DNA of 64,000 nt from the human T2T-CHM13v2.0 reference genome, Homo sapiens. The position numbers and the translations under genes were made by a program. Positions 1,561-9,800 of the stretch are shown one piece after another; within the stretch, counting starts at the first letter, position 1; each line of letters opens with the position of its first letter. Under the pieces are notes generated by a model. It ran no database searches. It was not told the DNA's origin and was given only the letters and a program-made list of their open reading frames with translations. The DNA lies in NCBI RefSeq assembly GCF_009914755.1, contig NC_060934.1. The stretch is one strand, 5' to 3'.

Positions 1561-2837
1561 AGTTTTTTGTTTTTTTTCTTTCAGTCTTTGTTCAGGTTTT
1601 ATAGTTGCATTCAGTGGGAGAGACACGGGGACTACACTTAGTCCATTGTACCCCAAACTGTAATTCCTCTATTAAATTTTTAGTACAACAATTCAACATT
1701 TTGTTTATTTTTAAGATGTTCATTTGTTCTAAGACCTTTATATTTTCTTTGTTTTTTTCTTTAATAGTTTATAATATTAATATAAACTATATTAACTTTC
1801 AACCAGGTAAAGATATGAAGGAAGTCTTTTATAATTTTGAAAATAATTTTACTTTTTCTCCCAACTATATTTGCTATTGTCTTGTTTATTTACATTGTGG
1901 TATTTCCTGTGTTTTTGGTTTTCCAATACTTTATTTACTACCCCATATCCTAATGGGACCATAGTATTTGAAATGGCAAAAACATTGAAGGCATCTATGT
2001 TTCTCTCTGTGTATGGCTGTGCTTTATCTCACATATAGTGATATGTAGTTTTATACATTTCATCTTTTCTGTCAAAATAGATTGTTAACAATTTGAATTT
2101 TTATCCTTTTATTTAGGAGACTAATGCTAATATTTCCTGATTTTTGGATGTGCTAGTGAGTATCCTGAGAATAAAGCCTATACATAGTTTCTTTTAAGAG
2201 CAATAGGATATTCTTAATGTGTCTTGTTTTTTATCTTTCTTTTTGTATACCATCTGTGGCTACTATAATAAAAATTATATTTTTGTGATTCTGGGATAGT
2301 GAGTTGGTATCAATTAATGACATCTAGATTGCTATCTATTTATTTCTCTATCTTCCTTACTGAGCTGTGACCACCTTAAGGGCAGGTGGAAACGGTTTCT
2401 TCATGTTTATGTTGTCAGCAGCCAGAACAGCCAGGCAACATGTGGATACAAAAATACTTATTCATATTATTTTCCGCTGTGTTAATTTCTTTGACATTCT
2501 ATATGTTTCTCAACTCTATTTTCTATGTTACTAATTGATTTTTCTGCAACATCAGTTCTATTTTTAACTACTTCCCATACTAATTTAAATGGTTCCATAG
2601 TGACATTCAAGTTTATTCTGTTCCTTTTTCAAAGGTGCCAAATAAATAATTCCTCATCGTTTTAAGATGTTTCAATTTTGTTCAAATTTTCTGAGAGATC
2701 AGGTTTCCTGACAGGCTGTTTTGCAGTTCTATTTTCATTGTTTGTCTATGGTAAGAGCTTAAATTGTCCAAGTCCAGGATTTGTGATTGGGTCATTCTTG
2801 AAGGAACATTCTTTTTTTTTTTTTTTTTTTTTTTTTT

Positions 2838-3262
2838 GGTTTAAAATAACAGAAATTCATTCTCACAGTTCCGTGGAGGCCAGAGGTCCAAAATGAATAT
2901 AACTACACCAAAATCAAATTGCTGGTGGATGCTTCATCCTCCAGAATTTCTAGGAGAGAATCTGTTACTTGATGCTTCCCATTTTTTTGTGGCTACTGGT
3001 ATTCCTTTGTTTGTGGCTGCATCACTCCAATCTCTGGCTTCATGGTCACATTGTCTTCTCTTCTTCTGTCTGCAATCTCCCTGCCTCTGATTAAACACAC
3101 TTGTGATTGCACTTAGGACCTATCTAGATCATCCAAGAAAATCTCCCTATCTCAAGATCCCCAACTTAATCACATCAGCAAAGACCTCATTTCCATGTAA
3201 GGTAATATAGGGTTCATGGATTAGGACCGGATGTCTTGGGGGCCATTATTCAGCTTACTACA
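2838..3262 (-). mobile_element. MLT1 (MaLR) LTR, MLT1D/E-like, ending at its poly(A) site
   Basis: Minus strand starts tgtagtaagctgaataatggcccc and ends actgtgagaatgaatttctgttattttaaacc followed by poly(A). Confidence 0.75.
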
Positions 3263-3274
3263 ACATATATTTAT

Positions 3275-6628: not shown

Positions 6629-6861
6629 ACAATGAGAACACATGAACACAGGAAGGGGAACATCACACTCTGGGGACTGTTGTGGGGTGGGGGGAGGGGG
6701 GAGGGATAGCATTAGGAGATATACCTAATGCTAAATGATGAGTTAATGGGTGAAGCACACCAGCATGGCACAGGTATACATATGTAACTAACCTGCACAT
6801 TGTGCACATGTACACTAAAACTTAAAGTATAATAATAATAAAACAAAACAAAAAAGAAACA
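4153..6861 (+). mobile_element. 5'-truncated L1PA3-like LINE-1
   Basis: ORF2 RT and C-terminal region, 3'UTR G-tract, A-rich tail; TSD AAAAACACTTTAA at 4140-4152 and 6862-6874. Confidence 0.95.
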
Positions 6862-9800
6862 AAAAACACTTTAACGAACAGGTCAAATAAATCATAATGT
6901 AAAGATATAAGTGGAAAAGCAATAAAAATATGTATAGATACATGTTTGTATGTACGCATACACCCAATCATGGGGTGAAGCAAAGGAGATAATTCAGATA
7001 AACTCAGATACTTACTATAGAAAAAACCTTGAAGATGAATGAGATAAATGTCCAATTTACAAAATGAGAAAAACCAACAGAACAAACCATCCGAAAGCAG
7101 AACATAAAAGAGAAGGGGAGAGAGAGTGAACAAAGCTAAGGTTGGTCTGAAGGAACATTCTTAACTTTCATTTCCAACTGGGGTTGAGTGATGGCTTCTC
7201 TGGGCTGCTAAAGTGCATAGTTTCAGTTTTCTCCATAATCAGAAAGAAATGATCATCAATATTGCTTCTAAATTTGAGGTTTTATTTTTGTGCTAAATGG
7301 AAGAAGTTTATTAGAAATAATAAACTATTAATAGAATAGAAATAATAAACTATTAGAAATAGAAATATCTTCCCACTTTTCAGAATATCAAGTATTTCCA
7401 AACATGGAATAGAGCTCATGAGAAAGAGCTCCTTTCCATTTGGAGTAAGGGTCAAAAAAAGCATTTGTCTTTTTGTAATCAAATTGTCAGAGTCCTTCCT
7501 ACCCCTGTATTAGGGCTGGTATTGGCGCTCAAGCCTGTTGGCACATTTGCCCCTCCAGCCTCTCAGCTGAGAGGAAACAGGTCCCTGCTGGATCAGGGCC
7601 TGAGTCGGAGCTTACCCTTGGGAGGGTCCAGTCAGCCTTGGCCTGGCTGTGCCTCTGTATGTAGAGTATACGTCCTGAGTATACGCCCAGGAGGTCTCTG
7701 GCCATGCCAGGTTATTCTCTTGAGCCACTGTCCCTTCTGTGCAGGGTTCTAGGCTTGCGTTGGCTGCTGGTGCCAACTTTTAATTCTCTCCAATCTTGTC
7801 AGAGAGATTATACATTTGCTGCAGAATATGAAATATGCTCAAAATCTTGTCAAACATTTTGGGTGTTAATGTGGATTTTTTCTTACCCTTTGACAGAAAA
7901 TGTCAAGGATATTTTAAGAGAAAAAAGGGAGAAGGAGCCTTATATGAATTCTCTTTCAGTGCCATCTTTCTGGAATGATAATATATTTCTATCTTAACTT
8001 CCGTGCCTGTTATTTTCATCTGAGAATTCTTTCTGTGTCATGTCTGATGGCTTCTTAGTTTTCAGTTTCATACTTTTTTGATGATGTTTTCATCTTTTGG
8101 ACAATACTCCCCATTATCATTTTTGATTCTGTTATTGATTGTGAGTCTACTGTCTCACATTCTTTCCTATCCTTATAAAATTCCCTTTGTCTTTTGCCAT
8201 AGTTCAGCTATTCTCTACATAAAGTCACTGAGAGTCAGGAGAATGAGTCTTATGTTAGCTTCGTCTTTCTTGACATTCCATACCCCTTTCTTTTATAAAG
8301 TTATGATCTTTAGGTAGAAAATAATTAAAATATAACAACCATTGCTATGTTCTTCAGTTTTTCCTCAGCTCTCTAAAATTTCTATATGCGCAGTTCATTT
8401 CATTTTTATTTTACTTGCTCCCAGGTGATGTGGGAGAAATTCATGATCCATGTATGGAGGACATAGCATAAGACTTTCCATCATGTACCAGACTAATGTT
8501 TCAAGAGGAAAGCATATCTGTCAGAGCAATATATGATCATCTAAACCAGGCATTTTGGTTACTATTTCCCCAAACTTGGCCAGGTTACTTTAAGCACTAA
8601 AGGTAAAGTTGTAAAAGGATCTATAATAATATCTCAGGAGCATCCAGGAGCAAGAAATATATGTATATACCCACAGGAGACTAGAATCAAGACCTGAAAG
8701 AACATCTAGAGCCAGGGTTCTTCTTTCTTCTTTTTCAGGGCTGCATAGCCTCACCTCTGTACTTGTCTGTTATCCAGGCATTTCCCTCTCTTTTGTGCAT
8801 ACGAATAAGGCCCCAAAGTGGCCATTTCCAGCTGAGTTTCTCATCACTTTCTAGTTCAAATGAACAGCAGAAATTGGCTAATATTCTCAATTCCCAATTT
8901 CTGGGAGGAAAAATCTATTGGCCTAGATTGGGTCCAATCAGTTCTATCAAATAGGAGTTCAAAGGTGCATCTTTTTGCGTGGGGTGGTAGTTCCTAGAAA
9001 TAGAAGTACGTAGGATGGAAAGAAATTACAAAAAGGATCTGCCACAATGTATCCTTTTTAGAACTTCACTGACTACCAAGCTATTTTGGACATGGCAAGT
9101 GTAATTTTCTCTCTAGTTTATTCACCCCACTCCTTCTTAGAATTTGAACTGTTTCTATTTTTCCAGAATGCCTTGTTCTTATCTTCCAAGGGCAGAATCT
9201 TGAATATGTGGTTTTTAGCTTTAAAATAGGCCAGAGATACTTCATTCTTTAATCCTTCTTCCTGCATGCCAGTTTCCTTATCTCTAAAAAGTGGACATAA
9301 TGATACCTCTGGCTATGGGGAAATTAAATAAGATCATATATATAAAAGTACCCAGAATTGTACCTGTCATATGATACACACTCAAATGATTTTGAGCCAT
9401 AGTCTATTATATTCTTGCACTGGACACCAATTTATCCCCTGTCCTTAGGAATATTTTTCTTCTTTCTGGCTTCCTTCCTTTATTACTTTTTACAGTAGCA
9501 CACTGCCTTTGCCAAGCCCCTGTCTTGTTTGAAGAATTCTGCTCCTTGAAAATTGGAATAGGATTTGTGCATTTTCAGTCTATCAAAAACTTTCAATTTT
9601 GCATTAGCTTCTCAAAGACCATTGACACAAGCTTGTTGATTTTATTTGCAAATTCTCTTTGTACCTTGGCTCCTTATGTCTCAGCCAAAATAATTGAAAA
9701 CACTAAGAGAAAATGGATGTTTTTATCATCTCCTAATAAATTTAAGGCTCTAATTCTCTCACAATGGTTCAGTCCTTTTCTTTTCAGTCCGAATACCAGG

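What the first reader, a model, noticed from the sequence alone, without database searches (positions are those of the whole stretch)
2799..7162. Hidden 4.3-kb retroposed block polyadenylated at an MLT1 LTR poly(A) site
Seen: a perfect 15-bp direct repeat TGAAGGAACATTCTT (2799-2813, 7148-7162) brackets 4.3 kb. A pure T26 abuts the left copy and the right copy ends in TCTT/AA. On the minus strand the cargo ends ...gagAATGAAtttctgttattttaaacc-A26. Known: this combination is the signature of L1 target-primed reverse transcription, and MLT1 LTRs carry AATAAA at this position. Inference: a transcript terminated by an ancient MLT1 LTR at another locus was copied here, carrying unique DNA, MIR and L1M pieces with no sense-strand L1. 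That makes it an orphan 3' transduction or a lncRNA/3'UTR retrocopy, which repeat annotation would split into unrelated pieces.
Basis: partly seen in the sequence, partly recalled or inferred. Interest (0 to 1): 0.8.

Follow-up and report, generated by a model that had tools for sequence, protein, structure and literature searches.

The report
Retrocopy of RNA downstream of HSD17B12
A 1.6-kb piece of non-coding RNA made just past the end of the HSD17B12 gene on chromosome 11 was copied into chromosome 10 by the LINE-1 machinery tens of millions of years ago, and a young LINE-1 later landed inside it; it is a real but ordinary kind of event.

Summary
A perfect 15-bp direct repeat (2799-2813, 7148-7162), a pure T-run and a TCTT/AA nick site bracket the block.

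A source exists. CHM13 chr11:44,014,015-44,015,646 (+) is collinear with the block at 86-91% identity. There the LTR keeps an intact AATAAA and runs about 45 nt past the point where the chr10 copy turns into poly(A).

The block is composite. Only about 1.6 kb was retroposed (2838-4152 plus 6875-7147). The 2.7-kb L1 (4153-6861, + strand) is absent from the source and has its own 13-bp TSD. Its 3' end is 96-97% identical to many genomic copies, so it is a later insertion.

The source lies 1.7-3.3 kb downstream of the canonical poly(A) site of HSD17B12, on the same strand. That site is defined by two processed pseudogenes that both end at chr11:44,012,332/4. No sense-strand L1 lies within 50 kb upstream, so an orphan L1 transduction is unlikely.

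Best reading, by inference: a 5'-truncated retrocopy of a read-through or distal-poly(A) HSD17B12 transcript. The source-copy distance is K2P 0.10.

It is a new member of a known kind, of low to moderate interest.

The parts
2799..2813 (.). Left copy of the 15-bp target-site duplication (TGAAGGAACATTCTT) of the retrocopy
   Evidence: family D2. The left flank 2400-2813 is unique in the genome.
2814..2837 (-). Poly(A) tail of the retrocopy, read as a pure T-run on the + strand. The run is 26 T if the two T shared with the TSD are counted.
   Evidence: The source has no A-run at this point: chr11 continues CTGAGTTTGTGATAAATTTG....
2838..3269 (-). 3' part of the retrocopy: a sense-oriented LTR of an old dispersed family (MaLR/MLT1-like by recall), cut at its own poly(A) site. 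The hexamer is now AATGAA at 2859-2864 on the minus strand; the source has AATAAA.
   Evidence: 38 of the 38 scored hits other than self and chr11 fall within query 1-432 at 68-75% identity; the source and 2 family copies continue about 45 nt beyond the tail junction.
3270..4152 (-). Middle of the retrocopy: mostly single-copy DNA with three short patches of ancient repeats. It includes the single target copy (4140-4152) later duplicated by the nested L1.
   Evidence: the only long relative is chr11:44,014,313-44,015,181 at 86%; the other 38 scored hits are 41-258 bp at 68-93%. alignment.
4153..6861 (+). Nested, 5'-truncated young L1 (ORF2 reverse-transcriptase part, 3' UTR and A-rich tail). 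It inserted after the retroposition.
   Evidence: RVT_1 at E=7.4e-42 on 4250-5434 (+). Frames of 394, 280 and 116 aa. Absent from the chr11 source, where the two flanks are adjacent. Its last 886 bp are 96-97% identical to 39 of 39 scored non-self matches.
6862..6874 (.). Second copy of the nested L1's 13-bp target-site duplication AAAAACACTTTAA (first copy 4140-4152)
   Evidence: family D6. The source holds one copy-equivalent only.
6875..7147 (-). 5' part of the retrocopy. Its 5' end at 7147 corresponds to chr11:~44,014,015-44,014,017.
   Evidence: 2 of 2 genome matches are self and chr11:44,014,017-44,014,288 at 91%. alignment.
7148..7162 (.). Right copy of the 15-bp target-site duplication, followed by AA (nick site TCTT/AA on the + strand)
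   Evidence: The right flank 7148-7560 is unique in the genome.

Best explanation
This is an L1-mediated (target-primed reverse transcription) retrocopy, on the minus strand, of an unspliced non-coding RNA from CHM13 chr11:44,014,015-44,015,646 (+).

The RNA was cleaved and polyadenylated about 18 nt after the AATAAA of a sense-oriented MaLR-type LTR. The L1 endonuclease nicked chr10 at TCTT/AA. Reverse transcription was primed on the poly(A) tail. The cDNA was either 5'-truncated or began at an RNA 5' end near chr11:44,014,015. Integration produced a 15-bp target-site duplication.

Much later a 5'-truncated young L1 (2.7 kb) inserted in the opposite orientation inside the copy, with its own 13-bp duplication. 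That insertion inflated the block to 4.3 kb.

Inferred step: the template was a read-through or distal-poly(A) extension of the HSD17B12 transcript. The source lies 1.7-3.3 kb downstream of that gene's canonical poly(A) site, on the same strand.

The copy has no detectable coding or RNA-family content. It is most likely an inert fossil.

Confidence is about 0.97 for the retrocopy, its source, its direction and the later L1. It is about 0.6 for the HSD17B12 read-through origin. The overall figure refers to the whole statement.
For: Shown by tool results:

- Insertion hallmarks. The TSD is 15/15 and occurs only twice in the window, with 0 of 100 shuffles reaching 2. A pure T-run abuts it, and the nick site is TCTT/AA.
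- Source. The genome search with 2838-4152 gives one full-length relative, chr11:44,014,296-44,015,646 (-), at 86%. The search with 6875-7147 gives 2 of 2 matches: self and chr11:44,014,017-44,014,288 at 91%. The two source pieces are 7 bp apart, so the L1 is absent there.
- Limits of homology. In the pairwise alignment, homology stops exactly at the two TSD copies. The source has AATAAA at 44,015,623, and the last shared base is about 18 nt later. After that the source continues with a GT-rich stretch and the rest of the LTR. Two unrelated family copies (L003, L008) also continue past that point. Both chr10 flanks are unique in the genome.
- Nested L1. It has its own 13-bp TSD, an RVT_1 domain, and 96-97% identity to 39 of 39 scored non-self copies. 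By contrast, K2P between copy and source is 0.10.
- Gene context. Human HSD17B12 protein (P0014) maps at 100% identity to chr11:44,010,122-271 and 44,010,551-652, its last 84 residues. Two processed pseudogenes, on chr20 and chr6, are spliced across these exons, and both end at chr11:44,012,332/4, downstream of AATAAA at 44,012,308. The chr20 frame is 89-90% identical to proteins that their sources name HSD17B12 / very-long-chain 3-oxoacyl-CoA reductase.
- No sense L1 upstream. Between 43,964,000 and the source, 5 of 5 upstream L1 hits are on the minus strand.

From print: MaLR is the top LTR family at human poly(A) sites (292 of 639 LTR-associated sites), with a strong plus-strand bias (PMC2553571, passages read).
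Against: - The link to HSD17B12 rests on position and strand only. No RNA data were available. No second retrocopy bridges the 1.7-kb gap between the canonical poly(A) site and the source start. Searches with the two unique gap segments found only the segments themselves, weak repeat hits of at most 76% identity over 89-181 bp, and about 40-bp hits of 86-100% identity to one internal motif.
- The copy contains no annotated HSD17B12 exon sequence and shows no intron loss.
- The source's 5' boundary follows a pyrimidine tract ending in AG. An independent exon or transcription unit therefore cannot be excluded.
- There is mild tension with age. At K2P 0.10 between copy and source, a perfect 15/15 TSD has a chance of about 0.2 and an uninterrupted T26 about 0.25. 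These are my arithmetic; slippage may keep the homopolymer pure.
- The L1 probe covered only the 3' 2.7 kb of a young L1. Very old L1 families could be missed, but they would not have been active at the time.
Confidence: 0.6

Rival explanations
1. Retrocopy of an independent non-coding transcript (a lncRNA or a separate transcription unit or exon). It would start near chr11:44,014,015 and use the LTR poly(A) site, and would be unrelated to HSD17B12 transcription. The copy would then be full-length rather than 5'-truncated.
For: The copy contains nothing upstream of 44,014,015. No other genomic copy bridges the gap to the HSD17B12 3' UTR. The source boundary is preceded by ...TTTTATTTTTTTAAAG, which resembles a splice acceptor.
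Against: The sequence just upstream of the boundary is AT-rich, with no evident promoter-like feature by eye; this was not formally tested. 5' truncation is the commonest outcome of L1-mediated insertion (PMC10760644, passages read). The segment lies 1.7 kb past a well-expressed gene's end, on the same strand.
Confidence: 0.27
2. Orphan L1 3' transduction. A sense-strand full-length L1 upstream of the chr11 segment read through into flanking DNA and ended at the LTR poly(A) site. The copy was 5'-truncated so severely that no L1 sequence remains.
For: All TPRT hallmarks are present. The definition fits: insertions containing only 3' read-through sequence (PMC10760644, passages read).
Against: No + strand L1 3' end lies in the 50 kb upstream; 5 of 5 upstream hits are on the minus strand, and the nearest is 17 kb away. 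The 1.7 kb directly upstream holds two sense Alus and single-copy DNA. An SVA source is unlikely at this age, by recall; no SVA was seen by eye.
Confidence: 0.05
3. The MaLR element's own transcript: the 'unique' DNA is the internal part of an LTR retroelement, and the RNA ran from its 5' LTR to its 3' LTR poly(A) site.
For: The RNA ends at the LTR's own poly(A) site, in sense orientation.
Against: Only window 2838-3269 is repeated as a family. The 861 bp upstream has no long relatives besides chr11, only patches of 41-258 bp. The 5' 273 bp has none at all. No second LTR copy was seen in the block.
Confidence: 0.03
4. DNA-level duplication or transposition between chr11 and chr10, with a chance direct repeat and a chance T-run.
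For: None beyond the paralogy itself.
Against: Homology ends to the base at a poly(A) cleavage position 18 nt after AATAAA and is replaced by 24-26 A. There is a 15-bp perfect TSD with 0 of 100 shuffles and a TCTT/AA nick site. The flanks are unique and unrelated to chr11.
Confidence: 0.01

Closest known systems
Processed pseudogenes / gene retrocopies made in trans by L1 ORF2p, for example the two HSD17B12 processed pseudogenes at chr20:21.54 Mb and chr6:158.61 Mb
   Same: Same machinery and scars: a poly(A) tail, and an end at a poly(A)-signal-defined site of the parent locus. Same parent neighbourhood and a similar age: K2P to the parent is 0.087-0.089 for the two pseudogenes and 0.10 here.
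   Different: This copy holds no exon of the annotated mRNA, shows no intron loss, and derives wholly from DNA 1.7-3.3 kb beyond the canonical poly(A) site that both true pseudogenes used. Protein- or mRNA-seeded pseudogene pipelines would therefore not find it. No gene is annotated in the window (hub note).
Orphan L1 3' transductions (Solyom 2012 and Tubio 2014, as cited in PMC10760644, passages read)
   Same: Unique non-L1 DNA flanked by a TSD, with a poly(A) tail at a downstream genomic poly(A) site and no L1 sequence in sense orientation.
   Different: No sense-strand source L1 lies upstream of the parental segment. The upstream neighbour is a protein-coding gene's 3' end.
TE-derived poly(A) sites, in particular MaLR LTR poly(A) sites adopted by host transcripts (Lee, Ji and Tian 2008, PMC2553571, passages read)
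   Same: The RNA 3' end was made by the LTR's own plus-strand AATAAA and downstream element in its terminal region. This is the pattern that paper reports as typical for LTRs.
   Different: Here the evidence for use of the site is not an EST or mRNA. It is a genomic retrocopy that recorded the cleavage position.
Read-through ('downstream-of-gene') or distal alternative-polyadenylation transcripts (recalled; no paper read here)
   Same: The segment lies just past a gene's canonical poly(A) site on the same strand and ends at the next strong AATAAA. Only ATTAAA/AATAAA hexamers at 44,012,679, 44,012,686, 44,013,654 and 44,015,290 intervene.
   Different: Continuity of the RNA with HSD17B12 is inferred, not shown.

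Membership tests
L1-mediated (TPRT) retrocopy | Target-site duplication flanking the insert | tested here: met
   15/15 bp, with only 2 occurrences in the window and 0 of 100 shuffles reaching 2.
L1-mediated (TPRT) retrocopy | Untemplated 3' poly(A) tail abutting one TSD copy | tested here: met
   A T-run at 2812-2837. The source has no A-run at that position.
L1-mediated (TPRT) retrocopy | Nick site resembling 5'-TTTT/AA | tested here: met
   TCTT/AA at 7159-7164. The consensus itself is recalled.
L1-mediated (TPRT) retrocopy | A parental locus elsewhere, with homology ending at the TSDs and the 3' end at a poly(A)-signal-defined cleavage site | tested here: met
   chr11:44,014,015-44,015,646. 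AATAAA lies at 44,015,623 and the junction about 18 nt later. The flanks are unique.
Processed pseudogene of HSD17B12 (strict sense) | Contains exon sequence of the mature mRNA with the introns removed | tested here: not met
   The copy is collinear with genomic DNA and lies wholly downstream of the mRNA end at 44,012,332/4, which is defined by the two spliced pseudogenes.
Orphan L1 3' transduction | The parental segment lies directly downstream of a sense-oriented source L1 | tested here: not met
   No + strand L1 hit lies in the 50 kb upstream; 5 of 5 upstream hits are on the minus strand. Ancestral or polymorphic L1s are not testable here.
Empty-site / lineage-specific insertion | Orthologous locus in outgroup species with a single TSD copy and no insert | not testable with these tools
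   No other primate genome is held. Both flanks are single-copy, so no paralogous empty site exists either.
MLT1 (MaLR) LTR | Match to the MLT1 consensus in a repeat library | not testable with these tools
   No Dfam or Repbase library is available. What is shown: a roughly 430-bp dispersed family with 38 scored copies at 68-75%. Its 3' end carries AATAAA and continues about 45 nt further in 2 of 6 copies examined; 3 gave no hit and 1 gave a spurious Alu hit. The name is recalled.
Read-through / distal-APA isoform of HSD17B12 | RNA continuous from HSD17B12's last exon to the distal site | not testable with these tools
   Only same-strand position 1.7-3.3 kb downstream is shown. No bridging retrocopy was found. 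A literature search for HSD17B12 plus 'alternative polyadenylation' listed 6 papers. In the one read by passages the gene's mentions do not concern a distal site; the other 5 were seen as listing and abstract starts only.

The most novel reading that the evidence does not exclude
The copy is a genomic fossil of an RNA 3' end. It would record that, in the germline or early embryo of an anthropoid ancestor, HSD17B12 transcription ran about 3 kb past its canonical poly(A) site and was terminated by a MaLR LTR poly(A) signal. Such 'beyond-the-gene-end' retrocopies contain no annotated exon. They would form a class that escapes pseudogene pipelines and is split into unrelated repeat pieces by repeat masking. 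Mined genome-wide, they could serve as a palaeo-record of read-through and TE-derived polyadenylation.
Probability: 0.5. Interest if true: 0.35.

Novelty: new member of a known kind. Interest (0 to 1): 0.25.

Why it matters
It matters little for biology at this locus. The copy has no Pfam-detectable coding content outside the nested L1 (only 2 of its frames were scanned), no Rfam match, and no annotated gene (hub note).

Its value is methodological, in three ways:

- It shows that a direct repeat plus an A/T-run read by eye can uncover an unannotated retrocopy whose parent can be pinned to the base.
- It shows that nested younger insertions inflate such blocks.
- It shows that retrocopies can preserve the exact cleavage position of an LTR-derived poly(A) site downstream of a gene. 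That gives indirect evidence of ancient read-through or distal polyadenylation.

Tried and rejected
- The genome-wide PF00106 search scored only 18 of 153 candidates, none at chr11:44.0 Mb, so it did not locate the gene. I then scanned stop-to-stop frames. Only 118 of the 243 frames of at least 45 aa listed were sent, those of L015, L016 and L011. One weak adh_short hit resulted, at 23.8 bits, below the 26.6 cut-off. It was then confirmed through the spliced pseudogenes and the protein mapping.
- The PDB sequence search with the chr20 pseudogene frame gave only distant SDRs (best E=1.4e-8), so it could not name the gene.
- LTR family alignment: of the 6 family loci fetched (L003-L008), 3 gave no hit to the 171-nt 3'-end probe and 1 gave a spurious Alu hit. 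Only 2 were usable.
- Searches for a second retrocopy bridging the canonical poly(A) site and the source found none.
- Rfam gave 0 matches at the gathering threshold over 2500-7500.
- Pfam scan of 5 of the 10 frames listed: the two frames in the retrocopy proper (2845-3090 +, 6822-7160 -) and two further frames of the nested L1 (5435-6277 +, 6278-6628 +) gave nothing; only the L1 frame 4250-5434 (+) matched RVT_1.
- Literature on HSD17B12 alternative polyadenylation gave 6 papers. One was read by passages, and it said nothing about a distal site. The retrocopy/UTR/readthrough search listed 12 of 43 papers, and none was read beyond the listing except PMC10760644.
- Two paper searches failed on term format and were re-sent corrected.
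- Rejected readings: DNA-level duplication, orphan L1/SVA transduction, and a MaLR self-transcript (see rivals).
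Full report
**1. Observation**

The 15-mer TGAAGGAACATTCTT occurs exactly twice in the window, at 2799-2813 and 7148-7162, with up to one mismatch allowed. The expected count is 0.02, and 0 of 100 shuffles reach two. The bases just outside the two copies differ, so the repeat is exactly 15 bp.

An uninterrupted run of 26 T spans 2812-2837. Its first two T belong to the left repeat copy. 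The right copy is followed by AA, giving TCTT/AA. On the minus strand the cargo ends ...GAGAATGAATTTCTGTTATTTTAAACC followed by the A-run.

**2. A parental locus exists**

- A whole-genome search with window 2838-4152 scored 40 of 1898 candidates. It returned the window itself and one full-length relative, CHM13 chr11:44,014,296-44,015,646 (minus relative to the query), at 86% over query 1-1315. It also returned 38 hits confined to query 1-432 at 68-75%, which are an old dispersed LTR family.
- A search with window 6875-7147 returned 2 of 2 matches: the window itself and chr11:44,014,017-44,014,288 at 91%. On chr11 the two pieces are 7 bp apart.
- A global alignment of the chr10 block (L1 removed, minus strand) with chr11 (+) is collinear from chr11:~44,014,015 to 44,015,646. 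Similarity disappears exactly at the two TSD copies.
- At the 3' end the source reads GAGAATAAATTTCTGTTGTTTTAAACCA and then CTGAGTTTGTGATAAATTTGTTCCAGCAGCCCC.... So the LTR has an intact AATAAA (44,015,623). It also has a GT-rich stretch just after the junction, and about 45 further nucleotides that the chr10 copy replaces with poly(A).
- Two unrelated copies of the same LTR family (L003, L008) also continue through this point. Of the six family loci examined, three gave no hit to the probe and one gave a spurious Alu hit.
- Both chr10 flanks (2400-2813, 7148-7560) are single-copy in the genome.

Direction is therefore unambiguous: chr11 is the parent and chr10 is an RNA-mediated copy.

**3. 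The block is composite**

A second perfect direct repeat, AAAAACACTTTAA (4140-4152 and 6862-6874), brackets 4153-6861 (D6).

- This interval carries an RVT_1 domain on the + strand (E=7.4e-42). It lies in three long frames of 394, 280 and 116 aa. The interval ends in an A-rich tail. It is a 5'-truncated L1.
- It is absent from the chr11 parent, which has one copy-equivalent of the 13-mer.
- Its last 886 bp are 96-97% identical to all 39 scored non-self genomic matches, out of 5673 candidates of which 40 were scored.
- The retrocopy differs from its parent by 148 substitutions in 1570 aligned sites (p=0.094, K2P 0.10; non-CpG K2P 0.092) and 18 gap events.

So about 1.6 kb was retroposed (2838-4152 plus 6875-7147). 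The 2.7-kb L1 is a later, independent insertion in the opposite orientation. By recall, 3-4% pairwise divergence suits L1PA2/3. The subfamily was not tested.

**4. What the parental RNA was**

- I used the nested L1 as a probe against chr11:43,964,000-44,044,000. All five upstream L1 hits are on the minus strand, and the nearest is 17 kb away. The only + strand hit is downstream. An orphan L1 transduction is therefore not supported.
- A weak adh_short hit (23.8 bits, below the cut-off) on one of 118 scanned frames pointed to an exon at chr11:43,993,733-816.
- That exon has two spliced copies, on chr20 and chr6.
- Mapping those copies back onto chr11 defines exons at 43,993,733-816, 43,995,412-482 and 44,010,120-272. 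It also defines a last exon at 44,010,550-44,012,334. In chr11 the last exon is interrupted by an Alu (44,011,300-606) that both pseudogenes lack. Both pseudogenes end at 44,012,332/4.
- The chr20 frame is 89-90% identical to proteins named HSD17B12 / very-long-chain 3-oxoacyl-CoA reductase by their sources. The human protein P0014 maps at 100% identity to the last two coding exons and ends at 44,010,652.
- AATAAA hexamers at 44,012,285 and 44,012,308 precede the canonical end.

The parental segment therefore starts 1.68 kb and ends 3.3 kb downstream of the canonical HSD17B12 poly(A) site, on the same strand. The gap holds two sense Alus and single-copy DNA.

The most economical reading is a read-through or distal-poly(A) HSD17B12 transcript that ended at the LTR signal and was copied with 5' truncation. 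This step is inference from position and strand. No RNA data were available, and no other genomic copy bridges the gap. An independent transcript starting near 44,014,015 remains a serious rival. The boundary follows a pyrimidine tract ending in AG.

**5. Content of the cargo**

- Only 2838-3269 behaves as a family repeat.
- Besides its chr11 relative, 3275-4135 has only short hits, 41-258 bp at 68-93%, in three patches.
- 6875-7147 has no other relative.

This argues against a MaLR element's own internal sequence. It fits ordinary intergenic DNA with ancient repeat debris. The labels MLT1, MIR and L1M are recalled and untested.

Rfam finds nothing at gathering thresholds. Pfam finds nothing in the two scanned frames of the retrocopy proper.

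**6. Age**

K2P 0.10 between copy and parent is about 0.05 per lineage. With recalled neutral rates this suggests roughly 25-45 Myr. That is similar to the two true HSD17B12 pseudogenes, at K2P 0.087-0.089 over the 3' UTR.

A perfect 15-bp TSD and a pure T26 are mildly lucky at that age (about 0.2 and 0.25 by my arithmetic). They are not implausible.

**7. Comparison with what is known**

- L1 makes processed pseudogenes in trans. Orphan transductions are insertions holding only 3' read-through sequence (PMC10760644, passages read).
- MaLR LTRs are the LTR family most often providing human poly(A) sites, on their plus strand and in their terminal region (PMC2553571, passages read).

The present case combines these known elements. 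It meets every tested TPRT criterion. It fails the strict processed-pseudogene criterion, because it has no mRNA exon and no intron loss. It fails the orphan-transduction criterion, because there is no upstream sense L1.

It is not annotated in the window (hub note). Its parent lies outside the annotated mRNA, so it would be missed by mRNA- or protein-seeded pipelines.

**8. Verdict**

The size should be corrected from 4.3 kb to 1.6 kb, and the parent has been identified.

It is a new member of a known kind, with interest 0.25. The empty-site test in other primates and RNA 3'-end data at chr11:44,015,646 are the decisive missing pieces.

Noticed in passing
L023 (chr20:21,543,525-21,545,279, minus) and L024 (chr6:158,606,617-158,608,521, minus): Two spliced HSD17B12 processed pseudogenes. 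Both end at the canonical poly(A) site, and both lack the Alu now present in the parent 3' UTR (chr11:44,011,300-44,011,606). That Alu therefore entered the parent after both retropositions. K2P to the parent 3' UTR is 0.089 and 0.087.
   Followed up: partly
L002, chr11:44,015,471-44,015,503: Inside the source LTR an A-run of about 33 stands where the chr10 copy has 7 A. This is a homopolymer expansion in the parent, or a contraction in the copy, since the retroposition.
   Followed up: no
window 7312-7330 and 7337-7355: A perfect 19-bp direct repeat TAGAAATAATAAACTATTA spaced 25 bp apart, just right of the insertion. It looks like a small local duplication (D3).
   Followed up: no
G000 chr6:100,349,121-100,349,672 (+): An uninterrupted 278-aa open frame with a full adh_short domain (E=1.7e-44) in one piece. 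It is an intronless SDR gene or retrogene, unrelated to this finding.
   Followed up: no
G000 chr11:44,056,889-44,057,161 (+): An AlkB-type 2OG-FeII_Oxy_2 exon about 41 kb downstream of the source. By recall this is ALKBH3, the next gene after HSD17B12.
   Followed up: no
window 4135-4152: NCBI's repeat mask starts at 4135, according to the hub note. However, 4135-4152 still aligns to the chr11 parent and includes the L1's 13-bp TSD. By TSD and parent alignment the L1 proper starts at 4153.
   Followed up: partly
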